This document shows, piece by piece, positions 2,966 through 50,067 of a stretch of 64,000 nucleotides of DNA; position 1 is the stretch's first letter; the number at the start of each line of letters is the position of its first letter. The stretch is taken from positions 5,988-69,987 of the forward strand of contig JBJOLT010000015.1 of the NCBI GenBank assembly GCA_046045415.1, in the 5' to 3' direction. This DNA is from Chloroflexota bacterium. GTDB lineage: Bacteria > Chloroflexota > Limnocylindria > Limnocylindrales > CSP1-4. The notes under the pieces are model-generated. The model was not told the DNA's origin. It saw only the letters and a program-made list of their open reading frames with translations, and searched no databases. Both the position numbers and the translations under genes were made by a program.

Positions 2966-2987
2966 CGTCGCGTCCCCATCGAGCGTC

Positions 2988-14717: not shown

Positions 14718-14794
14718 TGGTCGGGGCGGCCGGATTCGAACCGGCGATCTCGTGCTCCCAAAGCACGCGCGTTGCCAGACTACGCCACGCCCCG
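14718..14794 (-). tRNA. tRNA-Pro (anticodon UGG), with encoded CCA
   Basis: Cloverleaf folded by hand: acceptor CGGGGCG/CGCCCCG, D-stem GCGT/ACGC, anticodon stem CGTGC/GCACG with loop TTTGGGA, T-arm GCCGG-TTCGAAT-CCGGC, discriminator A plus CCA. 77 nt. Confidence 0.9.
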
Positions 14795-29497: not shown

Positions 29498-29525
29498 GCG
29501 GAGAGCCTACCCGCCGCCGGGCGGG

Positions 29526-32005: not shown

Positions 32006-32015
32006 CGGGCGGGGC

Positions 32016-33116: not shown

Positions 33117-33787
33117 GCGCTCGCTCCATCGGCTGGGGCGTCGGCCCGCTCGGCGAGCGCGTCGGCCCTGGGGTCGTACCGGTAGGCGCGCCCGCATCGG
33201 GCGCAGTGGAGACTCGGATCGTGAGCGTACAACTCGGGCTTCCCCGGCGCCGGGTTCCCGTGCTCGTCCTTCAGCCGGTCGCCGCACGCGCAGACCCAGC
33301 CGATCCGGCGGGCCGGGTTGCCGGCGACGAGCGCGTGGTCGGGGACGGTCCTCGTGACGACCGCCCCGGCCCCGACGGTCGCGAAGCGCCCGACGTCCAC
33401 CCCCGCGACGACGACGGCGCCCGCACCGATCGAGCAGCCGTAGCGGAGCGTGATCGGGCTGACGACCCAGTCGGCGGCGCGGGCGAGCTCGCCGGTCGCG
33501 GTGATCGCGCGGGGGAACCGGTCGTTCGTGAGGATCGCGTTCGGGCCGATGAAGACGCCGTCCTCGACCGTGACGCCGTGGTAGACGAGCGCGGCGTTCT
33601 GGATCTTCACCCGGTCGCCGATGACGACGTCCTCGTCGATGAACGCATCGCGGCCCACGATGCAGCCCGCGCCGATCGTCGCGCGGTTCCGCACCTGGGC
33701 GCGGTGCCAGACGCTCGATCCGGCGCCGATCGCGACGTCCGCCTCGATGTCGGCCGACGGGTGGACGCGCGCAGAGGGGTCGATCAC
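33113..33787 (-). CDS. Left-handed beta-helix (hexapeptide) N-acetyltransferase (WbpD-like) with a C-terminal Cys-rich tail
   Basis: 224 aa with hexapeptide repeats (IGAGSSV, IGAGCIV, IGDRVKI, IGAGAVV). The tail is WVCACGDRL...HCARCG. GTG at 33787. Confidence 0.85.
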   Translation of the reverse strand: MIDPSARVHPSADIEADVAIGAGSSVWHRAQVRNRATIGAGCIVGRDAFIDEDVVIGDRVKIQNAALVYHGVTVEDGVFIGPNAILTNDRFPRAITATGELARAADWVVSPITLRYGCSIGAGAVVVAGVDVGRFATVGAGAVVTRTVPDHALVAGNPARRIGWVCACGDRLKDEHGNPAPGKPELYAHDPSLHCARCGRAYRYDPRADALAERADAPADGASA

Positions 33788-33863
33788 GGGTGGGAAGGGC
33801 TCCTTCGACGGCGCGCGACGGGGGCTCGGCGAGCGCGGCGCGAGCGCGACCGAGGCGTGGCGG

Positions 33864-33869
33864 AGTATA
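33864..33869 (-). promoter_or_regulatory. Candidate -10 box (TATACT) for the minus-strand wbp/glycosyltransferase operon
   Basis: This is the only AT-rich hexamer in the 178-nt spacer upstream of the acetyltransferase gene. It fits TAnnnT. No convincing -35. Confidence 0.3.
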
Positions 33870-33965
33870 CCGGAGCGGCCCTTCGGGACCCGGCGGGCGA
33901 CGGGCCGATCCCGTCGGTCCGACGCGCTCGGGCAGGTGGGCGCGGGCCGGTCGCCCTCCCCGGCC

Positions 33966-34796
33966 TCATCGCCGGCGGACCGCCGCCGCGACGGCCGCAC
34001 CCTGGCGGAGGAGCGCGCGGACGAGGCGCTCGACGAGCCGGCCCGCTCCGGTCGCACGGAGCTCGTCGCGGCGGAGGGCGAGGACGAGGACGAGCGCCTC
34101 CCAGATGATCCGGCGCGACATCTTCGAGCGGCCCACCCGACGGTCGCGGAAGGTGATCGGGACCTCCCGGATCCGTGCGCGGCCCCGCGCGGCCCGGTAG
34201 GTCATCTCGATCTGGAAGACGTAGCCGCCGGCATGGATCCCGCCGAGGTCGATCGCCGCGAGCGTCGCGGCGCGCCACGCCTTGAAGCCGCCGGTGAGGT
34301 CGCCCGGGCCGAGCCGGAGGACGAGCTTGGCGAAGAGGCTCCCGCCGCGGGAGACGATCCGACGACCGATCCCCCAGTCCTCGACCCGCCCGCCGCGGCA
34401 GTACCGAGAGCCGATGACGAGGTCGGCCTCGCCGCGCTCGAGCGGCCCGAGGAGCGCCGGCAGCGCGTCAGGATCGTGGGACCAGTCGGCATCCATCTGG
34501 ACGACGGTCCCGGCACCGCCGGCGAGGGCGACCCCGAAGCCGTCGACGTAGGCGCGCCCGAGTCCCTCCTTCCCGGCTCGATGGCGGACCCTGATCCGCG
34601 GGTCGGCGGCGGCGAGCTCGTCGGCGAGCCGGCCGGTCCCGTCCGGCGAGGCGTCGTCGACGACGAGGAGCGTCGCCTCGGGGAGCGCCTCGAGGATGGC
34701 GCGCGCGATCGGGGCGAGGTTCTCCGCCTCGTCGTACGTCGGGAGGACCACCCACGTCCCGGCGGGACGGGGCTCCGCGGTCGTTCGGCGCGCCAC
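33966..34796 (-). CDS. Polyprenol-phosphate mannose/glycose synthase (GT2, Ppm1/DPM1-like)
   Basis: 276 aa with VVLPTYDEAENL, VVDDASPDGT, VQMDADWSHDP and GGFKAW. Confidence 0.85.
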   Translation of the reverse strand: MARRTTAEPRPAGTWVVLPTYDEAENLAPIARAILEALPEATLLVVDDASPDGTGRLADELAAADPRIRVRHRAGKEGLGRAYVDGFGVALAGGAGTVVQMDADWSHDPDALPALLGPLERGEADLVIGSRYCRGGRVEDWGIGRRIVSRGGSLFAKLVLRLGPGDLTGGFKAWRAATLAAIDLGGIHAGGYVFQIEMTYRAARGRARIREVPITFRDRRVGRSKMSRRIIWEALVLVLALRRDELRATGAGRLVERLVRALLRQGAAVAAAVRRR

Positions 34797-34880: not shown

Positions 34881-36668
34881 TCAGCGGAGCGGGATCGAGA
34901 GCTGCGCCACGCCGCGGAGCCCGAGGAGGTCGGTCCCGCTCACGGCGATCGAGAGGCGACCGGCCGTCCCGCCCCGGAGGACGGGGATCCGGGCGACCCA
35001 GCGGTCGCCCTCGAGGACCATCCGGACGCTCCGCGCCGCGAGGCCGGGCTGCATGACGCGGGCGACCGGCGGCGCGGCGACCGGCTCGGCCGCGGCCGCG
35101 GTGAGGACGAGGATCCCGCCCCGGACGGCGATCGAGCGGCCGGTCGCGAGGGCGAACGGCCCGACCCCGATCGGCACCCCGATCCGGGTCGCGAGCCCGC
35201 CCGACGCCGCGACGACGCTCGCCCGGTACGTGCCCGGCGCGACGGGGCGGCCGTCCGCCCCGATCCCGTCCCAGGGGACGGCGTGGAACCCGGCCCCCCG
35301 CGGCGCTCGCGGGGCGACGGTCGCGACGGTCCGGCCGGCCGCGTCGAGGATCGCGACCGAGACGGTGGCGGCCGCCGCGAGCGTGAACGAGACCTCGGTC
35401 GCGCCGGGGGCGGTCCCGTTCGGGTCCGCCGGCCAGATCGCGGGGAGGCTCGTGGCGACCCCCGCGAGCGCCGTGTGGACGGCGATCCGCTTCTGGAGCG
35501 GCGGCGCCACGTTCCCGGCCGCGTCGCGGGCGGAGACGGTCGCGACGTACCGTCCGTCGGGGACGACCGCGCCCGCGTCGTCGCGCCCGTCCCACGTGAC
35601 GGTCGTCCGTCCCGGAGCGACGGGGAGCGACCAGGCGCGGACCGGGCCGCCTCCCTCCGCGGCGATCGCGACCTCGAGCAGGCCGCCCTCGCCGAGGGCG
35701 AGCGGGAGTGCGATCGACTCGCCGACGCCGTCGCCGTTCGGCGAGAAGGTGACGGGGGCGAGGGCGTTCCCGACCGCGACGAGCGTCGGCGGGGCGACGT
35801 CGGGGGGCGGGGCGACGACCGGGGCGCCGAGCGCCGGATCGAACGGCGCGAGCGGGTCGGACGAGGTCGCGCCGCGGACGGCGTCGGTCGTGAGCGACGG
35901 GTCGCCGAGGAACGAGCGGTAGAAGCCGGTCGTCGGCGTCTCCGGATCGAGCTGGCCGAGCCGGCCGGGCGTCCGGACGCTCTGGAAGGGGATGAGGTTC
36001 CAGTTCGCCCCCGGCGCGACCCGCCAGAGCGAGTCGAGCGTCTGGCTCGTCGCGAAGAGCGCGTTCATGTAGTAGACGGAGCCGCGGTGCGCGTCCGCGA
36101 TGACGGCGCCCGCGCCCGCCGCGCTCCAGCCGGCCGCCATGTTGTCGACGCGCTGCTGCGCGACGTCGATCGTCGGCTCGCCCCGGCCCGGCTCGGAGTT
36201 CCCCGAGGCGTAGCAGAGGTGGTGGAGGAGGACGAGGGCACCCGGCGCCAGCCTCACCTCGGCGGCGAGATACGCCTCGCCCCAGTAGCGGGTCGTGGAG
36301 TCGCCGCTCCCCGGATACGGGTTGAGGCCGAGGCCGTCCTGGGTCGCCGGGAGGAGCGTGGTCGAGTACGGGCTCGGGAACCCGTTCCCGTGGCCGAGGT
36401 AGACGACGACGTTCGCGCCCTGGAGCGCCGGCTTCGCGAGCTCCCACGTCGCGTTCGGGGAGTAGAGGGTCGTGACGTCGCTCGTCCACCGGCGGGCCTC
36501 CGCGGCGATCGCCTCCGCCTCGCTCCGATACGAGGAGGTCATCGAGCCGGCGGGGCCGACGATGACGACGACCTTCGGCGGGGTCGCGGCGGCGACCGGC
36601 GGGGCGGCGAGCCCGAGGGAGCCGGCGGCGGCGAGTGCCGCGAGGATGACGGCGACGAGTCGGTTCAC
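34881..36668 (-). CDS. Secreted protein: N-terminal domain with clan-CD-like His/Cys motifs plus two FlgD-Ig-like domains
   Basis: 595 aa with signal peptide VNRLVAVILAALAAAGSLGLAAPPVAAA. It contains ANVVVYLGHGNG and ALVLLHHLCYASGN, then FSPNGDG..VTWDGRDDAGAVVPDGRYV..ARDAAGN and a second WDG..G..V..GTY module. Confidence 0.75.
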   Translation of the reverse strand: MNRLVAVILAALAAAGSLGLAAPPVAAATPPKVVVIVGPAGSMTSSYRSEAEAIAAEARRWTSDVTTLYSPNATWELAKPALQGANVVVYLGHGNGFPSPYSTTLLPATQDGLGLNPYPGSGDSTTRYWGEAYLAAEVRLAPGALVLLHHLCYASGNSEPGRGEPTIDVAQQRVDNMAAGWSAAGAGAVIADAHRGSVYYMNALFATSQTLDSLWRVAPGANWNLIPFQSVRTPGRLGQLDPETPTTGFYRSFLGDPSLTTDAVRGATSSDPLAPFDPALGAPVVAPPPDVAPPTLVAVGNALAPVTFSPNGDGVGESIALPLALGEGGLLEVAIAAEGGGPVRAWSLPVAPGRTTVTWDGRDDAGAVVPDGRYVATVSARDAAGNVAPPLQKRIAVHTALAGVATSLPAIWPADPNGTAPGATEVSFTLAAAATVSVAILDAAGRTVATVAPRAPRGAGFHAVPWDGIGADGRPVAPGTYRASVVAASGGLATRIGVPIGVGPFALATGRSIAVRGGILVLTAAAAEPVAAPPVARVMQPGLAARSVRMVLEGDRWVARIPVLRGGTAGRLSIAVSGTDLLGLRGVAQLSIPLR

Positions 36669-36812: not shown

Positions 36813-37796
36813 CTACGGGACCGGGGTCGGGCTCGGCGCGGCGGGGTCGGGGGTGACGAACGGCTGCTCCGAGTCGGGGAGCGTCCCGTCGTCGTTCGTC
36901 ACCTCGGTCGGCTGCTCGCCGAGGTCCGGGAGGCCGCCCTCGTAGTCGGTGATGACGAGGACGTACTCGAGCCGGTCGAGGTCGGCGGTCGGCTGGAGGT
37001 AGGCGGTCTGGACGACCGCGTTCGCGTCGCGGATCACGTCGACGACCTGGCCGACGACGAGGCCCTTCGGATACGGGGAGCGGACCCCCGACTGGAGCTC
37101 GATCCCGGCGGTGACCACCTCGTCGCCGATGAGGATCTTCTCCGTCGAGTCGATGTTCCGCATGACGAGGACGCCGCCGAGCTGGCCGTCGATCTCCCCG
37201 GTCGCGGCGCTCGCCTGCAGCTGGCCGATCACCGTCGAGCTCGTGTCGTTGATGAGGACGACGTTCGCGGCATCGCGGCCGACCTGGACGACCCGGCCGG
37301 CGAGCGCGCCGCCCGCCGCGATGACGACGTCGCCGACGGCGATCCCCTGCGCGGTCCCGACGTCGATCGTGATCACCCGTCGGAAGTCGGACGCATCACG
37401 GCCGATGACGATCGCGGTGACGGTCGCGAACTGGAGTCCGTTCCGGAGCTGGAGGAGCCCGGTGAGGAGCTCGTTCTCCCGCGCGAGCTCGACCGCCCGG
37501 GCGTTCTCGGCCCGGAGCCGCGCGTTCTCGTCGATGAGCCGGGCGTTGTCGCGCCGGAGCCCGTCGATCTCGGTGAGCGCCGCGGTGATGGACGCCCCCG
37601 TCCTCGCGACCGAGGTGAGCGCCGCCTGGAGCGGCCGGAAGGCGAAGCCGATCCCCTTCTGGACCTCGACGATCGGCTCGGCGCTCGAGAAGGCCATGAG
37701 GACGACCGTCGCGACGAGGAAGACGACGTACGTGGCGACCCGCCGCCGCGCGGCGCGCGCGGCGAGGGCGGCGGCGGAGGGACCGACCCCGGCCAT
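36813..37796 (-). CDS. mreC: Rod shape-determining protein MreC
   Basis: 327 aa with an N-terminal TM segment, a coiled coil (LRRDNARLIDENARLRAENAR) and beta-barrel domains (GIAVGDVV, GRVVQV). Coordinates are taken from the ORF track. Confidence 0.9.
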   Translation of the reverse strand: MAGVGPSAAALAARAARRRVATYVVFLVATVVLMAFSSAEPIVEVQKGIGFAFRPLQAALTSVARTGASITAALTEIDGLRRDNARLIDENARLRAENARAVELARENELLTGLLQLRNGLQFATVTAIVIGRDASDFRRVITIDVGTAQGIAVGDVVIAAGGALAGRVVQVGRDAANVVLINDTSSTVIGQLQASAATGEIDGQLGGVLVMRNIDSTEKILIGDEVVTAGIELQSGVRSPYPKGLVVGQVVDVIRDANAVVQTAYLQPTADLDRLEYVLVITDYEGGLPDLGEQPTEVTNDDGTLPDSEQPFVTPDPAAPSPTPVP

Positions 37797-37814: not shown

Positions 37815-38867
<1,053 letters not shown>

Positions 38868-38907
38868 CCGGGCGTGTGTCCCCACGGGCTGGTGATGAAG
38901 GCACCGC

Positions 38908-38913
38908 AGTATA
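38908..38913 (-). promoter_or_regulatory. Candidate -10 box (TATACT) upstream of mreB
   Basis: An AT-rich TAnnnT hexamer in the 86-nt radC-mreB spacer, about 40 nt upstream of the mreB ATG. Confidence 0.3.
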
Positions 38914-38953
38914 CCCGCCGCCCCCACGCGGACTCTCGGGAGCGATGCGGCGC

Positions 38954-39724
38954 TCACTCCGCCGCGCGTGCCGCCGACGGCCCCCGGTCGAAGGCGACGC
39001 CACGGTCGCGGAGGCTGACGAACGCGTCGTGCCCGACGACGAGGTGGTCGAGGACCTCGACGTCGAGGAGCCGGCCGGCCGCGAGCGCCTCGGCGGTGAG
39101 ATGGAGGTCGTCGGGGCTCGGGGTCGGGTCGCCCGACGGGTGGTTGTGGACGAGGATCACCCCGACGGCGTTCTCCCGGACCGCGTCGCGGAAGAGCTCC
39201 CCCACCCGGACGAGCGACGCGCTCACGTTCCCCTGGTAGACCGTGACGACCCGGAGGACGGCGTTCCGGCTGTTGAGGAGGACGACCCGGAGCTCCTCGC
39301 GCTCGAGCCGGCCCATCTGGAGGACGAGCCGGTCGGCGATGTCCCTCGGGGAGCGGACGATCCAGCGGCCGGTCGGCCAGTCGGCGAGGAGGCGGCGACC
39401 GAGCTCGAAGGCCGCGACGAGGCGCGCCGCCCGCGCGGCACCGACCCCCGGGAGCGAGTCGAGCTCCGACGGCGCGGCCCGCGCGAGACCGCTCAGCCCG
39501 TCATGGCGGGCGAGCGCGTCCTCGGCGATCGCGACGGCGCTCGCGCCCCGGACGCCGCTCCCCCAGAGGAGCGCGATCAGCTCGGCCGAGGTGAGGCCGG
39601 CGACCCCGCGCTGGACGAGGCGCTCACGGGGTCGCTCCGCGGCGGGGAGCTCCCTGATCGTGCGACCCGGCCGTGCCGCCCGCCCCCGGGGCGCCATGCC
39701 CGTCCCGTCTCCGCTCACGTCCAC
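38954..39724 (-). CDS. radC: RadC-family JAB/MPN-domain protein (UPF0758)
   Basis: Contains ERPRERL, ELIALLWGSG and HNHPSGDPTPSPDD. Alternative start at ATG 39697. The radC-mreB-mreC order matches that in B. subtilis. Confidence 0.85.
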   Translation of the reverse strand: MDVSGDGTGMAPRGRAARPGRTIRELPAAERPRERLVQRGVAGLTSAELIALLWGSGVRGASAVAIAEDALARHDGLSGLARAAPSELDSLPGVGAARAARLVAAFELGRRLLADWPTGRWIVRSPRDIADRLVLQMGRLEREELRVVLLNSRNAVLRVVTVYQGNVSASLVRVGELFRDAVRENAVGVILVHNHPSGDPTPSPDDLHLTAEALAAGRLLDVEVLDHLVVGHDAFVSLRDRGVAFDRGPSAARAAE

Positions 39725-39887: not shown

Positions 39888-40946
39888 TCAGGTGCCGGCG
39901 AGGTTCGAGGCCGCCTGCGCGACGACGATGAGGGCGCCGTTGAACGCGGCGTGGAGGCCGATCGCGGCGTAGAGCGACCGGCGGCGGAGGAAGATCCAGC
40001 CGAGGGCGATCGCGACGGGGAGCCGTCCCGCGAAGCCGACGGCGGCGATCCCGACCGCCTCGCCGAACGTCGGGGCGCTGACGGCGATCACGTGGACGAG
40101 CGCGAAGAAGAGTGCCCCCCGGACGAGGGCCGCCCGCTCGCCGATCGCCCGCGCCCAGGCGGTCGTCGCGAAGCCGCGGAAGAAGATCTCCTCGCCGATC
40201 GGCGCGACGATCGCCGCCGTCACGAGGTTCAGCGCGAGGCCGGCCGCGTCGGTCGCCTCGGGGAGCGCGGGCTCCGGGGTCGATCCGACGACGCGGATGA
40301 GGAGGTCGAGGAGGAGTCCGGTGACGAGGACGACCGGCGCCGCGAGGAGCGCACCGGCGAGGAGCTCGCGGAGCGCCCGTCCGGGCGGCACGGCGAGGCC
40401 GATCTCCGACCACGAGAGCGCGCCGGACCCCACGACGAGGAGGCGGACGAGGACGAGGTAGACGACGCCGGTCGCGAGGACGGAGGCGAGCGCCGTCGTC
40501 GGCGAACGCGCCGGGACGCCGGCCGCACCGAGGAGCGCCACGAGGAGGGCGACGAGGAGGAGGGTGAGCGGGATCGTCGCCGCGAAGACGAGGAAGGGCG
40601 ACGGGCCGCGATACGGCGCCGCGCCGCCGTCGCTCCCGTGATCGTCGTCGCCCACCGCATCCGGCGACCCGCGGCGCCGTTCGAGCGCCTGGGAGCCGGC
40701 GCCGCCGAAGAGGCCGAGGCCGAGGAAGAGGAGGCCTGCGAGCAGCAGGCCGCTCGCCGCCGCCCGCCCGCCGGCGAGGAGCGAGACGAGGATCAGGCCG
40801 CCGCCGACGATCGTGAGGAGCCAGGCGACGAGGTAGAGGCCGGGCGCAGCACGGCGGTCGAGGCCGAACGTCGCGCTCCCCGGCGGCCCTGCCCGCGTCG
40901 GCTCGGGCGCGGCTCCGGGCGGCTCCTCGCGGGTCGGGTCGGTCAC
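39888..40946 (-). CDS. CPBP-family intramembrane glutamic endopeptidase (CAAX protease/Abi)
   Basis: Multi-TM, with motifs PIGEEIFFRG, FFALVH and HAAFN. GTG at 40946 overlaps the upstream stop (GTGA). The rest of ORF 39888..41189 is a spurious extension. Confidence 0.8.
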   Translation of the reverse strand: MTDPTREEPPGAAPEPTRAGPPGSATFGLDRRAAPGLYLVAWLLTIVGGGLILVSLLAGGRAAASGLLLAGLLFLGLGLFGGAGSQALERRRGSPDAVGDDDHGSDGGAAPYRGPSPFLVFAATIPLTLLLVALLVALLGAAGVPARSPTTALASVLATGVVYLVLVRLLVVGSGALSWSEIGLAVPPGRALRELLAGALLAAPVVLVTGLLLDLLIRVVGSTPEPALPEATDAAGLALNLVTAAIVAPIGEEIFFRGFATTAWARAIGERAALVRGALFFALVHVIAVSAPTFGEAVGIAAVGFAGRLPVAIALGWIFLRRRSLYAAIGLHAAFNGALIVVAQAASNLAGT

Positions 40947-41560
40947 CGCTCCGGCAGCGACCCGGTGGCTGCGCTCGCGCTCGGCTGCTTCGACGGCGCG
41001 GTCGCGGACGACGGAGCGCGACCGGCGGCGGCCGGGCCGCCCGCGGTCGCCTCCGACCCGGCCGGTGCCGACTCGCTCGCCCGCTCCCCGAGGTCGCGGC
41101 CGCACCAGGCGCAGAGGAGCCAGTCGGTCGCGACGAGGCGGCTGCACCCCGGGCACGGCCGGCTCAGCCGCACCCGGCAAGAGGGACACGCGATCCAGTC
41201 GTCGCGGACGCGCCGGCGGCAGCGCGGGCAGGACCCCGACGCGTCCACCTCGGCGAGGAGCGCCTCCTGCGCGAGCGTCCGCTCGTAGACGTCGTCCGTC
41301 CGCTCCTGGGGCCGGATCAGCCGGTAGAGGAGGACGGCGGCCGGGAAGAGGATGGGCGTGAAGACGACGATGACGGCCGCGGCGACGTACGGGAGGACGG
41401 CGTTGTCGGTCCGGAGCTGGAGGTCGCGGAAGGCCCAGTACGCGGACGCGAGCCAGAGGACGACCCAGTAGATCGCGAAGGCGCGGATCCCGAGCTGGAC
41501 GATCGGGCTCCCGAGGAAGCCGCCGATCGCGCCGGTGATCCCGTCGATGATGTCGGCCAT
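40943..41560 (-). CDS. Membrane protein with a C-terminal double zinc-ribbon (4x CxxC) and a Ser/Ala-rich tail
   Basis: 205 aa starting MADIIDGITGAIGGFLGSP, with 2 TM segments. The ribbon region is CPRCRRRV..CPSCRVRL..CPGCSRLV..CAWCGRDL. Confidence 0.7.
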   Translation of the reverse strand: MADIIDGITGAIGGFLGSPIVQLGIRAFAIYWVVLWLASAYWAFRDLQLRTDNAVLPYVAAAVIVVFTPILFPAAVLLYRLIRPQERTDDVYERTLAQEALLAEVDASGSCPRCRRRVRDDWIACPSCRVRLSRPCPGCSRLVATDWLLCAWCGRDLGERASESAPAGSEATAGGPAAAGRAPSSATAPSKQPSASAATGSLPER

Positions 41561-41618
41561 CGGGTCGTGGGGGCCTCCGTCGCTGCCCCGGCGCGGCGCC
41601 GCGGGGCGGAGCGCGAGT

Positions 41619-42518
41619 CTAGCAGGCGTCCGGCCCGGCTCGGCCGAGGAGCGAGGAGGTCGCGACGACCGCGAGGAGGGCGAGCGAGCCGCCCCACGCC
41701 CCGACGAAGAGAAGGGCGAGCGGGAGGGCGGCGGGACTCCCGATCGCGAGGGCGTCGCCGGCCGCCTCCCAGGCGAACCGCGCGAGCGCGAGCGACGGGA
41801 CGACGAGGAGGGCGGTGCGGGCGGCGTCGCGGAGTCCGCCGCGGACGAGCTCCCCGGGCCGTCGGATCGCCGCGGCGAGGGCGGCCGCGACCGCGCTCCC
41901 GGACCCCGTGCCGTCGACCGCGACCCGCCGGGCGGCGACGCCCCCGAGCCGGCTCGCGAGGAGCCACGCCGCTCCCACGAGGAGGAGGACGTCGGCGGCA
42001 CCCGCCGCGACCCTGAGCGGGAGGGCGACGGCGGGGTCCGATGGGCCGGTCAGCTCCCCGTACGCCACCGCGACGAGCCGGGGCACCGACCATGCGAGGG
42101 CGACGCCGAGCGGGATCGCGAGGAAGGCGCGGACGGCGAGGATCCGGAGCGGGTCGCCGCGCCGGGGAGTGGCGACGGGCACGACCCTCCCGTCGGCTCC
42201 GGCCGCGGTACGGAGGAGGGCGGCCTCGACGACCGCCGCGACGAGTCCCGCGCCGGCGAGCCAGCCGGCGACCCCGAGGACGGCGGACGCGATCGCGCCG
42301 AGCAGGGCGGGCGAGGGGCCGGACGGCGTGATCGCCGTCGGGCCGACGAAGGTGGCGACCCCGACGGACGACGGGAGGACGACGACCGGGAGGAGCGCGA
42401 CCGCGAGCCAGCCGTGGAGGAGCGCGACCGCGAGCGCGGCGGGCCAGAGGTCGCGTCGCGCGAGTGCCGCCCGGAGGCCGAGCGGCCCGCCGCTCATCCG
42501 GGCCGGGCCGTCCCGCAT
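41619..42518 (-). CDS. Hypothetical integral membrane protein (Ala/Leu-rich, about 7 TM)
   Basis: 299 aa with an ATG start 8 nt after the UPF0182 stop. The hydrophobic periodicity is consistent with a membrane protein. No family recognised. Confidence 0.6.
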   Translation of the reverse strand: MRDGPARMSGGPLGLRAALARRDLWPAALAVALLHGWLAVALLPVVVLPSSVGVATFVGPTAITPSGPSPALLGAIASAVLGVAGWLAGAGLVAAVVEAALLRTAAGADGRVVPVATPRRGDPLRILAVRAFLAIPLGVALAWSVPRLVAVAYGELTGPSDPAVALPLRVAAGAADVLLLVGAAWLLASRLGGVAARRVAVDGTGSGSAVAAALAAAIRRPGELVRGGLRDAARTALLVVPSLALARFAWEAAGDALAIGSPAALPLALLFVGAWGGSLALLAVVATSSLLGRAGPDAC

Positions 42519-42525
42519 CCGGACG

Positions 42526-45500
42526 TCACGGGGCGGGGCTGGCGCCGCCGGTCAGCTCGGCGAGCTGGCTGAGCGCCTCCTCGACGAGCGCGATCTCGCT
42601 CCCGTACGTGGCGAAGTCGCCGCGGCGGAGCGCCGCCTGCGCGAGCTCGAAGTGAAGGTTCGCGTACTCGATGAGCGCCGCGACGTCGCCGGTCGGCGGG
42701 GTCGGCGCGGGGCTCCCGCCCGGCGCCGGCGTCGGGGTCGGCGTCGCACCGCCCGAGCCGCCCGAGCCGCCCGAACCCCCGGAGCCGCCGGTCCCGTTCG
42801 AGGCGAGCTGCGCCTCGAGGGCCTCCTCGAGCGTGTCGCCCCAGACGACGGTCGTCGAGGTCGCGATGATCACCTTCTGGAGCTCGGGGAAGGCGGAACT
42901 CGTCGACTGCAGGTAGATCGGCTGGAGGTAGATGAGCGAGTCCTGGATCGGCATGACGATCAGGTTCCCGCGGATCACCCGGCTCCCGGCCTGGCTCCAG
43001 AGGCTGATCTGCGCGCTGATCGTCGGATCGGCGTCGATCCGCGCCTCGATCTGGTTCGGGCCGAGGACCGACGTGTTCTCCGGGAACTTGTGGACCCGGA
43101 CCTCGCCGTACGCCTCGCCGTCGTTCCGGGCCGCGATCCACGCGATCATGTTCGGCCGCCGCTGCGGGACCATCGGCTGGAGGAGGAGGAACTCGGTCGC
43201 GGTCTCCCCGGGCATCCGCATCTGGACGTAGTACGCCTCGGCGGGGAGCGTCTGGTCGCTCCCCGAGTCGACCGGGACGGTCCAGAGGTCCTCGCGGTTG
43301 TAGAAGGCGGCCGGGTCGCTCACGTGGTAGGTGGCGTAGAGGCGCGTCTGGACGTTGAAGAGCTCCTCCGGGTAGCGGACGTGCGAGCGGAGATCCTCGG
43401 GGAGCTCGTCGAGCGGCCGGAAGAGCGTCGGGAAGACGCCGCCGTAGGCCCGGACGAGCGGGTCGTCGGTGTCCGCGACGTAGAAGCTCATCGTCCCGTC
43501 GTACGCGTCCATGACGACCTTCACGGAGTTCCGGATGTAGTTGAACGGAAGGTCGCCGAGCCCGGTCCCGGGGAGTTCGAGCGGATCGAAGCGCTGGGCG
43601 TTCGGGAAGCGGTCGCTCACGGAGTAGGCGTCCTGGATCCAGACGAGCCGGCCGTCCTCGCGGATGACGAGGTACGGATCCTTGTCGTACCGGAGGAAGG
43701 GGGCGACGAGCCGGAGCCGCTCCTCGAGCGATCGGTGGAAGAGGATCTGGCTCTCCGAGGTGACCTGGTCGCTGATGAAGAGGTTCAGGTCGCGGAAGCG
43801 CGCGGCGAAGAGGAGCCGCGTCAGCGTGTTGTCGATGCGGACGCCGGTCGTGCCGGTCCAGCGGGTCTGCTGCCCGAGCCCGGCCGAGCCGCCCTCCGCG
43901 TCGCTCCCGACCGGGTAGTCGAACTCGCTCTGGCGGGCGCCGACGAGGACCCAGTCGCTCGGGCGCTCGCCGAAGTAGATCCGGAACTGGTCGATCGACG
44001 GCGCGCCGTCGACGGAGACGGGCGGGAGATCCTTGACGTAGAGGTTCGGCTGGCCGCTCTGCGTCGCCTCGTTCACCGGGACGAGGACCGCCCCGACGCC
44101 GTGCGTGAAGGTGATCTTCTGGTTGACCCACGAGTTCGCCTGCGGGTTCTTCTCGGGGGCGAGCTCGCGCGCCGAGAGCATCACCTGGCGCTGCTCGCCG
44201 TCGATCAGATAGCGGTCCGTGTCGACGTCGACGAACTCGTAGTACTGGCGGACCGTCTGGACCTGGTCGATGACGTCGCGGAGCGGCCGGTAGTCCCAGA
44301 CGCGGGCGCTCCGGAAGGTCTCGTCCTCGGCGGCGACGCTCGCCGCGGTGAGGGGCGCCTCGCCGCCGTAGTCGACCTGGCGCCAGTCGTCGAGGTCGTA
44401 GGCGAGCCGCGTCATCTCGATGTTGTTCCGGATGTACGGCTGCTCCTGGGCGAACTGGTTCGGGACGACGGTGAAGCGCTGGATGAACTCCGGGTAGAGC
44501 GTCCCGAGGACGACGGATGCGCCGAGCCAGATCGCGACCGTCATCGCGAGCGGCCAGACCATGTTCGTGAAGGCGCCGCCGACGAGGAACGCGGCGGCGA
44601 GCGCTGCGATCGCCGTGAGGACGTCGAGGCCGAGGAAGCGGGCGTTCGCGTCCGTGTAGCTGACGCCGGTGGCGACGCCCTGGGCGCCGTAGACGAGCTC
44701 GTACTTGTCGAGCTGGTACCCGGCGGCGACCGAGAGGAGGTAGAGGCCGGCGAGGACGCCGATGTGGACCCGGATCGGCGTCGTGGGGCGGAGGTCACCG
44801 CGGAGCCCCGCGAGGAGGTACCGGGCGCCGGCGACGATGAGCGCGCCGACGACGAGCCCGTTGAGGACCGACTGGACGAGCCGGAGGAACGGGAGGTCGA
44901 AGAGGAAGAACGAGATGTCCTGCCCGAAGACCGGGTCCGGGGCGGCCGCACCGGCGGCGTCGAACGGGACGCGGTTGAGGTAGAGCTGGATCGTCTCCCA
45001 CGACCCGGCGGCCGCGGCGCCGATCCCGAGCGCGAGGAGGAGCGAGAGGCCGACGATGAGCGGGATCCCGACCGGCCCGAGATCGGGCATCGAGGCGCCC
45101 GGCGTCACGTCGCGGGCCCCGCCCGACCGGGCCCGGTAGCGGTCGTCGCCCTGACCGGAGACGGTCCAGCCGCGCTCCCCGGCGGCGGCCGCCTCGTTCA
45201 TCCGGTCGATGAGGCGGGCGAGGGTCCCGCGGCCGTCCGGATCCGGCGGCGGGCCGAGCCGACCGGCGACCCAGAGGTTCCCGAGCAGGAAGAGGAGCGC
45301 GACGGCGAGGGCGGCGGCGAAGAGGATCAGCTGCGTCCCGACGCGGGTCCAGAAGACGTCGTCGTAGCCGACGCTCGTGAACCAGATCGCGTCGGTCCAG
45401 AGGTCGAGGACGAAGCCGCCGAGGAGGAAGACGAGGAAGGCGACCCCGGCGACGACGGTGAGGGAGACCTGGCGGACGGCGCCGATCCCGGCGCCGTCGT

Positions 45501-45717
45501 TCGGTCCGCCGGCGCCCCGGCGCGGCGGGCGCGGCCCGGACCCGCCGGGTCCGTCGGCGCGGGGCCGCCGGATCGGCTCCGGCTCGTCGTCCGCGTCCCG
45601 GTCGCCGGGGTCGCGCGGACCGCTCTCGCCGGGCGGCCGCTCGCCGCGGGCCATCGCGGCCTCGGCTTCCTGGCGGCGCCGCAGCTCTTCCATGAACTCG
45701 CCGAAGAGGTCCTTCAT
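42526..45717 (-). CDS. UPF0182-family large membrane protein (COG1615)
   Basis: 1063 aa. An N-terminal disordered segment is followed by multiple TM helices and then a large extracytoplasmic domain. Length and architecture match actinobacterial UPF0182. The C-terminal tail is Gly/Ser-rich (GGSGGSGGSGGSGG). Confidence 0.85.
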   Translation of the reverse strand: MKDLFGEFMEELRRRQEAEAAMARGERPPGESGPRDPGDRDADDEPEPIRRPRADGPGGSGPRPPRRGAGGPNDGAGIGAVRQVSLTVVAGVAFLVFLLGGFVLDLWTDAIWFTSVGYDDVFWTRVGTQLILFAAALAVALLFLLGNLWVAGRLGPPPDPDGRGTLARLIDRMNEAAAAGERGWTVSGQGDDRYRARSGGARDVTPGASMPDLGPVGIPLIVGLSLLLALGIGAAAAGSWETIQLYLNRVPFDAAGAAAPDPVFGQDISFFLFDLPFLRLVQSVLNGLVVGALIVAGARYLLAGLRGDLRPTTPIRVHIGVLAGLYLLSVAAGYQLDKYELVYGAQGVATGVSYTDANARFLGLDVLTAIAALAAAFLVGGAFTNMVWPLAMTVAIWLGASVVLGTLYPEFIQRFTVVPNQFAQEQPYIRNNIEMTRLAYDLDDWRQVDYGGEAPLTAASVAAEDETFRSARVWDYRPLRDVIDQVQTVRQYYEFVDVDTDRYLIDGEQRQVMLSARELAPEKNPQANSWVNQKITFTHGVGAVLVPVNEATQSGQPNLYVKDLPPVSVDGAPSIDQFRIYFGERPSDWVLVGARQSEFDYPVGSDAEGGSAGLGQQTRWTGTTGVRIDNTLTRLLFAARFRDLNLFISDQVTSESQILFHRSLEERLRLVAPFLRYDKDPYLVIREDGRLVWIQDAYSVSDRFPNAQRFDPLELPGTGLGDLPFNYIRNSVKVVMDAYDGTMSFYVADTDDPLVRAYGGVFPTLFRPLDELPEDLRSHVRYPEELFNVQTRLYATYHVSDPAAFYNREDLWTVPVDSGSDQTLPAEAYYVQMRMPGETATEFLLLQPMVPQRRPNMIAWIAARNDGEAYGEVRVHKFPENTSVLGPNQIEARIDADPTISAQISLWSQAGSRVIRGNLIVMPIQDSLIYLQPIYLQSTSSAFPELQKVIIATSTTVVWGDTLEEALEAQLASNGTGGSGGSGGSGGSGGATPTPTPAPGGSPAPTPPTGDVAALIEYANLHFELAQAALRRGDFATYGSEIALVEEALSQLAELTGGASPAP

Positions 45718-45799: not shown

Positions 45800-46255
45800 T
45801 CAGGGGCTGCCGAGCCGCTCCGCCGCACGCCGGAACCCGTCGAGCGCGGTCGCCGCGAGCTCCGACGGCTCCATCGTCGCGGCCCGCATCGGCTCCCAGC
45901 GGAAGCCCGCGACGACGATCGCGGGCGCGGTCCACGGGCGCCCCTCGTCCTCCGGGGCGACGCCGAGCCGGAGGCGGATCATCTGCCGTCCGCCCTCCTC
46001 GAGGATCATCCCGGAGAGGGCGCCCGCGAGCGCCGGGCCGAGCCGGGCGAGCGGCGGGTCGGCGGGCGGGCCGGAGCGCGGCGCGAGGGCGCGGAGCGGG
46101 ACGATCCCCGCGTCGTCGGCGACCCAGAGGAGCGCGAGCCACCAGCCCTCGAGGTCGCGGACCTCCGAGACCCCGGCGCGGAGCGTCCCGCCGGGGGCGC
46201 GGACCTCGACCTCGGGGGCGACCGAGCTCCCGGGGACCGCGAGCCGGTCGCTCAT
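45800..46255 (-). CDS. Hypothetical protein (151 aa)
   Basis: ATG at 46255 overlaps the stop of the small zinc-ribbon ORF (ATGA). The composition is protein-like ([42 protein letters not shown]). No family recognised. Confidence 0.5.
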   Translation of the reverse strand: MSDRLAVPGSSVAPEVEVRAPGGTLRAGVSEVRDLEGWWLALLWVADDAGIVPLRALAPRSGPPADPPLARLGPALAGALSGMILEEGGRQMIRLRLGVAPEDEGRPWTAPAIVVAGFRWEPMRAATMEPSELAATALDGFRRAAERLGSP

Positions 46256-46500
46256 CGGCGCCCGGACCGGTCCTCCTCGCCCTCGTCGGTCCCGATCAGG
46301 AGGCGGAGGAGGAGGCCGCGGCGCGGCCGGGGACGCTCGGGGAGGGCGACGGTCGTGACGCCGGGGATCGGCGGGAGCTCGTCCTCTGCGGCGCCCGGCT
46401 TCGGGAGCGTCGCGCCGCACGACGGACAGACGGCGGCCGACTTCGCCCGCGACGCCTTCGGGAGCGGCTCCGAGCACCAGGGGCAGGCGGTCACTCCCAT
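46252..46500 (-). CDS. Small zinc-ribbon protein (82 aa)
   Basis: Starts [33 protein letters not shown] (CxxC-x15-CxxC). ATG at 46500 overlaps the guaA 3' end by 10 nt. Confidence 0.5.
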
Positions 46501-48236
46501 TCGATCGTCGCCGGCGGCTTCGAGCTGATGTCGTAGACGACGCGGTTCACGCCGGGCACCTCGTTCACGATCCGGGCGGAGATCCGCCCGAGGACGTCGT
46601 ACGGGAGCTTCGCCCAGTCGGCGGTCATCCCGTCCTCGGAGGTGACGGCGCGGATCGCGACGACGTTCGCGTAGGTGCGGCCGTCGCCCATGACGCCGAC
46701 GGAGCGGACCGGGGTGAGGATCGCGAACGACTGCCAGACGCTCCGGTAGAGGCCGGCCGCCTTGATCTCGTCGATCACGATCCAATCCGCCTCGCGGAGC
46801 GTGTCGAGCCGCTCGGCGGTCACCTCGCCGATGATCCGGATCGCGAGGCCGGGGCCGGGGAAGGGCTGGCGCTGGACCATCGCCTCCGGGAGCCCGAGCT
46901 CCAGCCCGACGACCCGGACCTCGTCCTTGAAGAGGTACCGGAGCGGCTCGATCAGCTGGAACCGGAGGTCCGCCGGGAGGCCGCCGACGTTGTGGTGCGT
47001 CTTGATCTTCTGGGCGGTCTTCGTGTCCGAGGTGGCCGACTCGATCACGTCTGGGTAGAGGGTCCCCTGGGTGAGGAAGTCGATCCGCCCGAGCTTCGTC
47101 GCCTCCTCCTCGAAGACGCGGATGAACTCGTCGCCGATGATCCGGCGCTTCTGCTCCGGGTCGATGACCCCCGCGAGCCGGGCGAGGAAGCGCTCCCGCG
47201 CGTCGACCATCACGAGCCGCATCCCGAGGTTCGCCTCGAAGGTCGCGCGGAGGAGCTCCGACTCCTTCTTCCGCATCAGCCCGTGGTCGACGTAGATGCA
47301 CGTGAGCCGGTCGCCGACCGCGCGATGGACGAGCGCCGCCGCGACCGCCGAGTCCACCCCGCCGGAGAGCGCGCAGATCACCTTCCCGTCGGAGCCGGTG
47401 GACGCGGCGTGCCCGTCGACCCGGTCGCGGATCTCCGCGACGGTCGTCTCGATGAAGTTCGCCGGGGTCCACGCGGGGGCGATCCGGGCGATCCCGGTCA
47501 CGAAGTTGCGGAGGAGGTCCTTGCCGCGCGGCGTGTGGACGACCTCGGGGTGGAACTGGATCCCGTAGAGGCGCCGGTCCGGGGCGGCGAGCCCCGCGTA
47601 CGGCGTCGAGTCGGTCTGGGCGGTCGCGACGAAGCCCTCGGGGAGCCGGGTGATCGAGTCGCCGTGGCTCATCCAGACCGGCTGATCCCGCTCGAGCCCG
47701 GCGAAGAGCGCGTCCGACTCGCTCGTCACGTGGACCGACGCCGGCCCGTACTCGCGCTTCGCGGAGGCGGCGACCTCGCCGCCGAGCTCGCGCGCCATCA
47801 GCTGCGCGCCGTAGCAGATCCCGAGGACCGGGAGCCGGCCGCCCCAGATCGAGGCGTGCGGCCGCGGCGCCCCGGCGTCGTAGACGGAGTTCGGGCCGCC
47901 GGAGAGGATCACCGCGCGGACGCCGCGTCGCTCGAGCTCGTCGACCGGCGTGTCGTGCGGGAGGAGCTCGGAGTAGACGTTCAGCTCGCGGACCCGGCGG
48001 GCGATCAGCTGCGCGAACTGGCTCCCGAAGTCGAGGACGGCGACGACGCCCGGCTCCGGGACGATCGCGGCCGTCGGCGGCGGGTCCGACGGCGCCCGCG
48101 ACGGCGCGGGCGCATCGAGCGCGACCTCGAGATAGGCCTCGACCTCCGCGTCGTCGGGCGCGAGGACCCGGTGCCCGGCGTTCGCCGCGTCGCCGTGGAC
48201 GGTCTTCCCGCGCTCGGTCCTCCCGCGCTCGGTCAC
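46491..48236 (-). CDS. guaA: GMP synthase (glutamine-hydrolysing) with an N-terminal extension of about 65 aa
   Basis: Contains [39 protein letters not shown] and a C-terminal ATIEWE. The only canonical in-frame start is GTG at 48236. Confidence 0.9.
48204..48233. repeat. 15-nt tandem duplication at the guaA 5' end ([10 protein letters not shown])
   Basis: cttcccgcgctcggt (48204-48218) and cctcccgcgctcggt (48219-48233), with one mismatch. Confidence 0.7.
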
Positions 48237-48727: not shown

Positions 48728-49918
48728 TCAGCCGCCGCGCTGCCAGCTCTTCCCCTCGGTCTGCACCGACGGGGCATGGACGATCTCGACCGCCTGCATC
48801 TCGCGGAGCGTGCGGGCCCCGAGGGCGGCCATCGACTGGCGGAGCGCGCCGACGAGGTTCTCGGAGCCGTCGGTGACGCGCGCCGGGCCGAAGAGGATCC
48901 GCTCGAGGCTCCCGACCGTCCCGACCGAGATCCGCGTCCCGCGCGGGAGCGTCGGCGACGGGGCGGCCATCCCCCAGTTCGTCCCCCGGCCGGGCGCCTC
49001 CTCGGCGCGGGCGAGCGGCGAGCCGAGCATCACCGCATCCGCTCCGGCGGCGATCGCCTTCGCCAGCTCGCCGCCCCGGCGCATCCCGCCGTCGGCGACG
49101 ACCGGGACGTACCGGCCGGTCTCCTTCATGTACGCGTCGCGCGCGGCGGCGACGTCGGCGATCGCGGTGACCTGCGGGACGCCGATCCCGAGGACCTCGC
49201 GCGTCGTGCACGCGGCCCCGGGCCCGACGCCGACGAAGACCGCGGCGGCGCCCTGCTCCATGAGGGCGAACGCCGCTTCCGCGTTCGTCGTGTTCCCGAC
49301 CGCGACCGGGATCGGCATGAAGCGGGTGAAGTCGCCGAGCTCGAGCGGCTCGTAGCCGGTCGCGAGGTGGCGGGCGCTGCTCACCTGGCTCTGGACGAGG
49401 AAGAGGTCGGCGCCGTGCTCGGCGCAGAAGGGACCCCACCGTCGGGCCGCGGCGGGGGTGGCGGCCACCGCGACCTTCGAGCCGGCGTCGCGGATCGCGG
49501 CGAGGCGTCGGGCGACGAGCTCCTCCTGAAGAGGCTCGGCGTATGCCGCCGCGAGCAGCCCCTGGACCTCGTCCTTCGGCGCGGCCGCGATCCGGGCGAG
49601 GACGGCGTCGGGGTCGGGGAAGCGACCCTGGACGCCCTCGAGGTTGAGGACCGCGAGCCCGCCGAGGCGGGCGAGCTCGCCGGCGAGCCGCGCGTCGACG
49701 ACGGCGTCCATCGCGGCGGCGAGGACCGGGATCGCGAGCGGGATCCCGGCGAAGACCTGGGAGAGGTCGACGTCGCCGGGCTCGACCGTGCTCGTTCCGG
49801 GAGCGAGCGAGACGTCCTCGAAGCCGTAGGTCGGGCGGATCGCATCGACCTTCGAGCGGAAGACCCGCCGGGCCGCGGGATCGGTCGCCGAGACCGGGAC
49901 GCCTCTTCCGTGCTGCAA
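48728..49918 (-). CDS. GuaB3-type IMP dehydrogenase-family protein (no CBS pair)
   Basis: Contains YGFEDVSLAPG, IPVLAAAMD, GVGPGAACTTREVLGIGVPQ and ADGGMRRGGELAKAIAAGADAVMLG. I chose TTG at 49918 because a GGAGGG SD lies 5 nt upstream. The track ORF starts at GTG 49969. Confidence 0.8.
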   Translation of the reverse strand: MQHGRGVPVSATDPAARRVFRSKVDAIRPTYGFEDVSLAPGTSTVEPGDVDLSQVFAGIPLAIPVLAAAMDAVVDARLAGELARLGGLAVLNLEGVQGRFPDPDAVLARIAAAPKDEVQGLLAAAYAEPLQEELVARRLAAIRDAGSKVAVAATPAAARRWGPFCAEHGADLFLVQSQVSSARHLATGYEPLELGDFTRFMPIPVAVGNTTNAEAAFALMEQGAAAVFVGVGPGAACTTREVLGIGVPQVTAIADVAAARDAYMKETGRYVPVVADGGMRRGGELAKAIAAGADAVMLGSPLARAEEAPGRGTNWGMAAPSPTLPRGTRISVGTVGSLERILFGPARVTDGSENLVGALRQSMAALGARTLREMQAVEIVHAPSVQTEGKSWQRGG

Positions 49919-50067
49919 CGCGGCCCTCCAGGGTTGCCGGCGCTGCCGGCGGGGGTGAGCGGGTTGCACGCCAGTCTACAGCGGCGCCGCGGAGGCGGCC
50001 GGATCGACGACCCCGATCGACGTGCCGCACCGGCGTCCGGCCGCGCCGCGCAGCCGTGGCGCGTCCC

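What the first reader, a model, noticed from the sequence alone, without database searches (positions are those of the whole stretch)
39888..45717. Four-gene membrane operon: UPF0182, polytopic protein, zinc-ribbon membrane protein and CPBP protease
The large UPF0182 protein of unknown function (1063 aa) is followed after 8 nt by a 299-aa polytopic protein. A 2-TM protein carrying four CxxC pairs (a double zinc ribbon) comes next. A CPBP/Abi intramembrane glutamic protease follows, and its GTG overlaps the preceding stop (GTGA). The tight linkage suggests one envelope complex that combines a protease, a cytoplasmic zinc-ribbon sensor or adaptor, and UPF0182. This would give a functional handle on a widespread uncharacterised actinobacterial family.
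Basis: inference. Interest (0 to 1): 0.5.

Follow-up and report, generated by a model that had tools for sequence, protein, structure and literature searches.

The report
Clade-specific UPF0182, zinc-ribbon, CPBP membrane gene cluster
The four membrane-protein genes are real and stay together (with a fifth, overlooked gene) across one class of soil Chloroflexota, but the linkage is absent in other phyla and sometimes lacks UPF0182 itself, so it is a local clue and not a general key to the UPF0182 family.

Summary
All four genes exist on the minus strand as described: UPF0182 (1063 aa), an orphan polytopic protein B (299 aa), a 2-TM double-zinc-ribbon protein C (205 aa) and a CPBP protease D (352 aa, GTGA overlap). 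There are three corrections. The host is a Chloroflexota MAG (Candidatus Limnocylindria-like), not an actinobacterium. The A-B gap is 7 nt, not 8. A conserved 151-aa gene (up2, 45800-46255) sits just upstream.

The order guaA-(up1)-up2-UPF0182-B-(Y)-C-D-radC-mreBC recurs in about 90 related loci. D follows C in 50/50 testable cases, and B or Y precedes C in 46/46. In 70 UPF0182 loci from other phyla, no B, C, D or up2 homolog lies within 10 kb. There UPF0182 sits among purine or arginine genes. In 4 of 26 clade loci, up2 is followed directly by B with no UPF0182.

The best reading is two tightly coupled pairs (UPF0182+B; C+D) held side by side in one clade. They may share a role in membrane or envelope homeostasis, but they are not shown to form one complex. 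The cluster consists of ordinary family members in a new, lineage-restricted arrangement. Interest is modest.

The parts
45800..46255 (-). up2: a conserved 151-aa soluble protein of unknown function, 82 nt upstream of UPF0182.
42526..45717 (-). A: UPF0182 family protein, 1063 aa. It has 7 N-terminal TM helices, a large non-membrane domain, a Gly/Ser/Pro/Thr-rich linker and a conserved C-terminal helical segment.
   Evidence: PF03699, E=6.7e-258. Hydropathy. There are 10,550 family representatives at E<=1e-3. No relative has a solved structure by sequence.
41619..42518 (-). B: orphan polytopic membrane protein, 299 aa (292 aa if it starts at Met8). It starts 7 nt after the UPF0182 stop.
41561..41618 (-). 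B-C spacer of 58 nt, the only sizeable gap inside the cluster. In relatives this position holds an extra gene Y, or a 100-170 nt gap precedes C.
   Evidence: GGAGG lies 13 nt upstream of C's ATG. No promoter-like or terminator-like site was found here by the simple scan.
40943..41560 (-). C: 205-aa membrane protein. It has a highly conserved 2-TM hairpin (residues about 19-79; 41324..41506), a conserved juxtamembrane helix, a double zinc ribbon (residues 111-154; 41099..41230), and a variable tail that ends in a conserved ...LPER.
   Evidence: PF12773, E=2.3e-8. There are 1167 homologs and the top 120 are at least 50% identical. The invariant columns include all eight Cys and the WLAxAYWAFRD motif. 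The TM domain matches no Pfam family.
39888..40946 (-). D: CPBP (Rce1-like/Abi) intramembrane glutamic protease, 352 aa, about 8 TM segments. Its GTG start overlaps C's stop (GTGA). The catalytic core spans residues 237-337 (39936..40238).
   Evidence: PF02517, E=6.4e-16. The motifs EEIFFR252, FALVH281 and HAAFN332 are present and conserved in orthologs. D follows C in 50/50 testable loci.

Best explanation
The genes form a co-directional cluster, up2-UPF0182-B-C-D, that is conserved across a Candidatus Limnocylindria-like clade of Chloroflexota. It sits between guaA and the radC-mreBC cell-shape genes. The cluster is best read as two tightly coupled gene pairs placed side by side, not as one obligate machine.

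Shown:
- The gene identities.
- The close spacing of UPF0182 with B (7 nt here, at most 31 nt in relatives).
- The stop/start overlap of C with D.
- Intact catalytic motifs in D.
- The conserved hairpin and eight invariant Cys in C.
- The restriction of the cluster to one clade.

Inferred, pair 1: UPF0182 does here what is proposed for its actinobacterial homologs. It would act as an extracytoplasmic scaffold on a 7-TM base, working in membrane-protein quality control. B would be its clade-specific membrane partner.

Inferred, pair 2: C inserts as a hairpin, with the N-terminus and the zinc ribbon both in the cytoplasm. C is the dedicated partner of the intramembrane protease D, either as its substrate (cleaved near the conserved juxtamembrane helix or C-terminal tail) or as its regulator.

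Inferred, both pairs: they probably act in the same membrane or envelope homeostasis pathway and may be co-transcribed. UPF0182 is not required in cis.
For: - Families and motifs.
- Conserved order in 10 genome loci plus 3 further loci.
- Conserved order in 80 metagenome loci chosen by C alone: D downstream 50/50, B or Y upstream 46/46 after correcting filter artefacts, radC 24/25.
- Foreign genes have been inserted at guaA|up1, D|radC and radC|mreB, but never inside up2..D apart from Y.
- A-to-B spacing is always at most 31 nt (n=35). The C-D overlap or near-abutment is seen in most loci.
- Two-module reading: a 58-170 nt gap or gene Y always precedes C. UPF0182 is missing from an otherwise intact cluster in L092, L116, L120 and L148.
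- UPF0182 role: the preprint 10.1101/2025.11.14.688347 reports phenotypic correlation with ftsH and yccA in three actinobacteria and a predicted tetrameric dome.
Against: - There is no direct evidence of co-transcription or physical interaction.
- guaA and radC are equally syntenic, so conserved order may be inheritance and not selection.
- Outside the clade, none of the 70 UPF0182 loci has B, C, D or up2 nearby.
- B and up2 gave no informative fold match.
- The topology of C and any cleavage by D are inferred only.
- The FtsH link comes from an unreviewed preprint on a different phylum.
Confidence: 0.5

Rival explanations
1. Single obligate envelope complex. UPF0182, B, C and D assemble into one machine in which the CPBP protease is the catalytic unit, the zinc ribbon is a cytoplasmic sensor or adaptor, and UPF0182 is the extracytoplasmic part.
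For: All genes are co-directional and tightly spaced, and they are kept as a block in about 90 loci while the flanks are rearranged.
Against: UPF0182 is absent from an otherwise intact cluster in 4 of 26 loci, and these loci are not nearest relatives of each other. UPF0182 occurs without B, C or D in 70 of 70 loci from other phyla. A spacer or the variable gene Y separates the two halves.
Confidence: 0.15
2. Synteny by descent only. The two pairs, or all four genes, are functionally unrelated neighbours in a stable chromosomal segment (guaA ... mreBC) of one clade.
For: guaA, radC and mreB are conserved in the same order. guaA-UPF0182 adjacency also occurs in outgroups L014 and L016, where the downstream genes are purD and purE or purB. 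UPF0182 neighbourhoods elsewhere are unrelated housekeeping genes.
Against: Insertions have repeatedly broken guaA|up1, D|radC and radC|mreB but not up2..D. The clade is not shallow: UPF0182 is 48-64% identical, D 38-59% and B 30-45%. The 4-nt C/D overlap and the 7-nt A/B gap argue at least for pairwise coupling.
Confidence: 0.3
3. C and D form a regulated-proteolysis signalling pair, analogous to a membrane anti-sigma factor and its site-1 protease. D cleaves C and releases the zinc-ribbon domain to act on a cytoplasmic target.
For: C has a cytoplasmic metal-binding domain tethered by TM helices. D has intact protease motifs, and the two genes are translationally coupled.
Against: No sigma factor or transcription regulator was found among the neighbours tested. 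C has CxxC ribbons and no HxxxCxxC anti-sigma motif. C's most conserved part is the membrane hairpin, not the ribbon surface.
Confidence: 0.08

Closest known systems
UPF0182 family (PF03699), e.g. M. smegmatis MSMEG_1959, M. tuberculosis Rv3193c, C. diphtheriae DIP0733
   Same: The full-length Pfam match is 858 bits. The protein has 7 N-terminal TM helices plus a large non-membrane domain and a C-terminal helical segment. This matches the family description in the preprint.
   Different: It scores below the cut-offs of all three NCBIfam UPF0182 models (728 vs 995, 720 vs 949, 501 vs 1254). It has a longer N-terminal tail and TM2-TM3 loop; most relatives align only from about residue 220. It is encoded in Chloroflexota with clade-specific neighbours. 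No ftsH or BI-1/YccA-like gene was found among the neighbours tested.
CPBP / Rce1-like / Abi intramembrane glutamic proteases (PF02517)
   Same: The Pfam match is above the cut-off. All three signature motifs (EExxxR, FxxxH, HxxxN) and a polytopic architecture are present.
   Different: It does not reach the cut-off of any named NCBIfam CPBP subfamily: ABC_perm_CPBP, MrtS, MrtJ, Mrt_core, PEP-CTERM CAAX or MrtC. It has an N-terminal extension of about 230 aa with extra TM helices. It is always paired with a 2-TM zinc-ribbon protein, a pairing I found in no paper.
Double zinc ribbon (DZR, PF12773) proteins
   Same: It has four CxxC pairs and matches the full 45-position profile above the cut-off. 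This holds in 20 of 20 homologs.
   Different: The ribbon is fused to a very conserved 2-TM hairpin domain that matches no Pfam family. JGI's automatic name for the family, 'RNA polymerase subunit RPABC4/Spt4', looks like a zinc-ribbon artefact.
Proposed UPF0182-YccA-MSMEG4237-FtsH membrane-protein quality-control network (bioRxiv 10.1101/2025.11.14.688347)
   Same: UPF0182 is associated with small or polytopic membrane partners and with a membrane protease.

Membership tests
UPF0182 (PF03699) | Pfam profile match above the gathering score over the full profile | tested here: met
   858.3 bits against a cut-off of 27; profile positions 2-770 of 770
UPF0182 (PF03699) | About 7 N-terminal TM helices followed by a large extracytoplasmic domain (as described in the preprint) | tested here: met
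   There are seven hydrophobic segments between residues 77 and 408, then about 650 non-hydrophobic residues. The sidedness is inferred.
UPF0182 (PF03699) | Membership of a curated NCBIfam UPF0182 model (PRK00068, PRK02509, PRK12438) | tested here: not met
   727.9 vs 995, 719.6 vs 949 and 501.2 vs 1254 bits. It is a family member but lies outside those curated subgroups.
UPF0182 (PF03699) | Functional link to FtsH/YccA | not testable with these tools
   Only literature on Actinobacteria is available. ftsH is adjacent to UPF0182 only in L073.
CPBP / Rce1-like (PF02517) | Pfam profile match above the gathering score | tested here: met
   58.9 bits against a cut-off of 22.4; residues 237-337
CPBP / Rce1-like (PF02517) | Catalytic motifs EExxxR, FxxxH and HxxxN/D (established definition of the family, from my own knowledge) | tested here: met
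   EEIFFR at 252, FALVH at 281 and HAAFN at 332; conserved in orthologs
CPBP / Rce1-like (PF02517) | Named functional subfamily (MrtS, MrtJ, MrtC, PEP-CTERM CAAX, ABC-permease fusion) | tested here: not met
   All matches are far below the curated cut-offs.
CPBP / Rce1-like (PF02517) | Proteolytic activity | not testable with these tools
   This needs biochemistry.
Double zinc ribbon (PF12773) | Profile match above the gathering score and four CxxC pairs | tested here: met
   34.5 bits against a cut-off of 27.3. The CxxC pairs are at 111, 125, 136 and 150. All eight Cys are invariant in 20 homologs, and 20 of 20 homologs match.
UPF0182-YccA/FtsH module (preprint) | A BI-1/YccA-like or FtsH partner encoded with UPF0182 | tested here: not met
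   [not shown]
Anti-sigma factor / site-1 protease pair | An adjacent ECF sigma factor and an HxxxCxxC anti-sigma domain | tested here: not met
   No sigma factor domain was found in the flanking genes tested. C carries only CxxC ribbons.
PLDc_N-type 2-TM hairpin (PF13396; a resemblance recalled from memory) | Pfam profile match | tested here: not met
   There was no match at E<=5 in the window's C, and PF13396 is not among the 25 (of 48) families listed for its 19 homologs.

The most novel reading that the evidence does not exclude
In Limnocylindria, UPF0182 works with a dedicated set of partners encoded beside it. These are cytoplasmic up2, polytopic B, the zinc-ribbon hairpin protein C and the CPBP intramembrane protease D. 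Together they would form a membrane-protein quality-control or regulated-proteolysis module in which a CPBP protease takes the place, or works alongside, the FtsH/YccA partners proposed for Actinobacteria. That would give the first genetically linked protease partner for the UPF0182 family, and a defined substrate or regulator for a bacterial CPBP.
Probability: 0.15. Interest if true: 0.6.

Novelty: new member of a known kind. Interest (0 to 1): 0.3.

Why it matters
UPF0182 is a very large family with no solved structure. It has 10,550 representatives at 50% identity, no PDB relative by sequence, and only a recent, indirect functional proposal. Most bacterial CPBP proteases lack known substrates.

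A conserved cluster that places a CPBP, an invariant zinc-ribbon hairpin protein and UPF0182 together offers testable pairings: C with D, and UPF0182 with B. The value is limited for three reasons. The linkage is confined to one uncultured clade. UPF0182 can drop out of the cluster. The organisms are not genetically tractable.

The negative result is also useful. Across many phyla, UPF0182 has no conserved membrane or protease neighbour, so gene context will not solve the function of the family in general.

Tried and rejected
- B as a duplicated piece of the UPF0182 membrane domain. hhalign probability is 0.07%. Rejected.
- C's hairpin as a PLDc_N domain (recalled from memory). PF13396 does not appear at E<=5 for the window's C, nor among the 25 families listed for its homologs. 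Rejected.
- C-D as an anti-sigma/protease pair. There is no sigma factor nearby and no ZAS motif. Kept only as a low-probability rival.
- The AlphaFold-database fold library (afdb50) was unavailable.
- Enrichment of ftsH near UPF0182. There is one adjacent case (L073) and one FtsH-like AAA gene within 4 kb (L017) among 75 loci. This is not distinguishable from chance.
- Weak B-profile hits in L014 and L016 (E=6e-8 and 1e-5). They fall on ORFs that overlap other called genes in high-GC DNA, so I treated them as compositional.
- A promoter/terminator scan and an Rfam scan found nothing informative in the cluster.
- The apparent absences of D or UPF0182 in L125, L126, L141, L142 and L157 were artefacts of my position filter.
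Full report
**1. Observation**

The window is about 74% GC. On the minus strand, the ORF table and the sequence itself show four genes:
- A: 42526..45717, 1063 aa.
- B: 41619..42518, 299 aa.
- C: 40943..41560, 205 aa.
- D: 39888..40946, 352 aa.

All four genes have the third-position GC of real genes in this genome, 0.95-0.97.

Family assignments:
- A is UPF0182, E=6.7e-258.
- B has no Pfam or NCBIfam match.
- C is a double zinc ribbon, PF12773, E=2.3e-8, above the cut-off.
- D is Rce1-like/CPBP, PF02517, E=6.4e-16.

Hydropathy gives 7 TM segments in A, about 5-7 in B, 2 in C and about 8 in D. C carries CPRC111, CPSC125, CPGC136 and CAWC150. D carries EEIFFR252, FALVH281 and HAAFN332.

**2. 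Host and surroundings**

C is 100% identical to a protein of an NCBI 'Chloroflexota bacterium' MAG. Its close relatives are labelled Candidatus Limnocylindrales, an order of Chloroflexota. The host is therefore not an actinobacterium.

All flanking genes lie on the same strand. Upstream are an IMPDH-like gene (48728..49969) and guaA (46491..48236). Downstream are radC (38954..39724), mreB (37815..38957) and mreC (36813..37796). These are followed by a FlgD-Ig protein and a sugar-nucleotide and glycosyltransferase cluster.

The apparently empty 770 bp between guaA and UPF0182 holds a real gene, up2 (45800..46255, 151 aa). It is 56-59% identical to the gene in the same position in relatives. It has 422 homologs, nearly all 152 aa long, and none has a Pfam domain.

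**3. Conservation inside the clade**

Contigs that encode C homologs were examined, along with the ten genome loci whose UPF0182 is 44-64% identical to A. All show the order guaA-(up1)-up2-UPF0182-B-(Y)-C-D-radC-...-mreB-mreC. Y is an extra gene of 231-484 aa between B and C. It is present in 29 of 54 loci and absent in the window, L009, L011 and L088.

A metagenome scan seeded with C alone returned 80 more loci. After correcting filter artefacts, the counts among testable loci were:

| Feature | Count |
|---|---|
| D downstream of C | 50 of 50 |
| B or Y upstream of C | 46 of 46 |
| radC after D | 24 of 25 |

Spacing is informative. The A-to-B spacing is never more than 31 nt (n=35). C and D overlap by 4 nt or abut in most loci. 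A gap of 100-170 nt, or gene Y, always precedes C.

Foreign genes have been inserted at guaA|up1 (L007, L008, L009, L011), at D|radC (a GDT1 gene in L005) and at radC|mreB (L005, L086, L088). None has been inserted inside up2..D.

Divergence within the clade is substantial:

| Protein | Identity to the window (%) |
|---|---|
| guaA | 82-91 |
| UPF0182 | 48-64 |
| C | 49-66 |
| D | 38-59 |
| B | 30-45 |

guaA of the nearest outgroups is 77-79% identical.

**4. UPF0182 can be missing**

In L092, L116, L120 and L148, up2 is followed directly by B. No UPF0182 remnant was detectable at E<=10 in L092 and L116. That is 4 of 26 loci in which both up2 and B are visible. By C sequence, the closest relatives of these four include loci that do carry UPF0182 (L155, L166, L152), so the loss or relocation seems to have happened more than once. 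A Limnocylindrales MAG (L074) carries a divergent UPF0182 (36% identity) in an unrelated context.

**5. Outside the clade**

UPF0182 is a very large family, with 10,550 representatives at E<=1e-3. The 70 other loci come from the following groups:
- Dehalococcoidia
- Dormibacterota
- Methylomirabilota
- Bacillota
- Patescibacteria
- Cyanobacteria
- Acidobacteriota
- Gemmatimonadota
- Deltaproteobacteria
- three Actinomycetes MAGs
- Methanosarcinales

Profile HMMs built from the clade's B, C, D and up2 find nothing within +-10 kb in these loci. The only exception is a small zinc-ribbon ORF on the opposite strand in L075. I ran a Pfam scan of all TM-rich or Cys-rich neighbours. PF02517 and PF12773 were not among the 25 families shown, out of 63 matched.

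Instead, UPF0182 lies between guaA and purD-purE or purB (L014, L016), or between argB-like and argD-like genes (L012). In L073 it lies directly after an FtsH gene. ftsH adjacency is not enriched overall.

One caveat applies. The 80 loci are the best-scoring of at least 599, and only three are actinobacterial.

**6. The individual proteins**

- *C.* The most conserved part of C is the membrane hairpin with the following helix. The motifs are Y..V.WLAxAYWAFRD.Q.R..N..PY and RP.E....ER.LA.EA..AE. All eight Cys are also invariant. The hairpin matches no Pfam family. The tail is variable but ends in a conserved ...LPER, whose codons also carry the GGAG just before D's start. The motif persists as LPEG in L086, where D starts 40 nt later.
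- *D.* Its motifs are conserved in orthologs. It reaches no named CPBP subfamily cut-off.
- *UPF0182 and D.* Neither has a sequence relative with a solved structure.

**7. Literature**

A 2026 preprint (10.1101/2025.11.14.688347) reports on knockdown of the M. smegmatis UPF0182 gene MSMEG1959. The knockdown phenotypes resemble those of ftsH, yccA and the small TM protein MSMEG4237. Similar correlations are reported in C. glutamicum and B. breve. AF3 predicts a tetrameric dome that binds YccA and MSMEG4237. Another preprint finds recurrent MSMEG_1959 mutations under ethidium bromide selection. No paper links CPBP proteases with zinc-ribbon partners.

**8. Interpretation**

The cluster is real and is under some selection as a block within one clade. 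Its internal structure, the variable Y, the dispensable UPF0182 and the lack of any such linkage elsewhere all point to two coupled pairs that share a location and perhaps a pathway: UPF0182+B and C+D. They do not point to one obligate complex.

The mechanism I commit to, which is inferred, has three parts:
- D is an active intramembrane glutamic protease whose dedicated partner is C, either as substrate or as regulator.
- UPF0182, with B, acts in membrane-protein homeostasis as proposed for Actinobacteria.
- The two pairs contribute to the same envelope-maintenance function, next to the mre cell-shape operon.

Confidence is about 0.5 for the two-module reading. It is much lower for any specific biochemical step.

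**9. Novelty and score**

Every recognisable gene is an ordinary member of a known family. B, up2 and C's hairpin are clade-restricted orphans. The arrangement itself has not been described, but it is lineage-specific and gives only a weak handle on UPF0182 in general. Interest is 0.3. The most novel reading not excluded is a CPBP-based UPF0182 proteostasis module, with probability about 0.15.

Noticed in passing
[not shown]
   Followed up: yes
L092 6388-7883; L116 2789-4424; L120 2-1154; L148 3-1259: Four related loci keep guaA-up1-up2-B-(Y)-C-D-radC but have no UPF0182 between up2 and B, with no remnant in L092 and L116. By C sequence they are not each other's closest relatives, which suggests repeated loss or relocation.
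   Followed up: partly
L073 8023-9843 and 9989-12856: In one Chloroflexota MAG, an FtsH gene (AAA plus Peptidase_M41) lies directly upstream of UPF0182 on the same strand. This fits the preprint's FtsH link, but such adjacency is not enriched across the 75 loci.
   Followed up: partly
L014 8246-14785; L016 3196-11227; L012 9034-14000: Outside the clade, UPF0182 is embedded in housekeeping biosynthesis genes. It lies in guaA-UPF0182-purD-purE or purB in a Chloroflexota MAG and a Dormibacterota MAG, and between an amino-acid kinase (argB-like) and a class-III aminotransferase (argD-like) in Dehalococcoidia.
   Followed up: partly
window 40943-40970 (-) and the C termini of homologs (alignment A5): C's variable, disordered tail ends in a conserved ...(G/D)SLPER, with Glu at position -2 in at least 90% of homologs. 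The codons also carry the GGAG just before D's overlapping start. The motif persists as LPEG where D starts 40 nt later (L086). It could be an RBS constraint or a recognition tail for the CPBP protease.
   Followed up: partly
L002 4525-5460; L005 7113-7898; L086 7420-8874: Gene Y, an unannotated protein of 231-484 aa, sits between B and C in about half of the clade loci (29 of 54). It is absent from the window, L009, L011 and L088. A second small gene, up1, between guaA and up2, is likewise absent from the window.
   Followed up: partly
L074 (Candidatus Limnocylindrales MAG), UPF0182 at 2624-5353: A Limnocylindrales genome carries a divergent UPF0182 (36% identical to the window's) in a different context, without guaA, B, C or D. 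It may be a second paralog or a relocated copy.
   Followed up: no
C family, table: JGI's automatic name for this membrane zinc-ribbon family is 'RNA polymerase subunit RPABC4/transcription elongation factor Spt4'. This is almost certainly a zinc-ribbon-driven misannotation.
   Followed up: no
window 34881-36668 (-): The gene right after mreC, where mreD is often found, encodes a 595-aa protein with two FlgD Ig-like domains. It is followed by a GT2 glycosyltransferase and a sugar-nucleotide and polysaccharide gene cluster (28379-34796).
   Followed up: no
window 14721-14794 (-): This single tRNA gene is the only Rfam match at gathering threshold in the whole 64-kb window.
   Followed up: no
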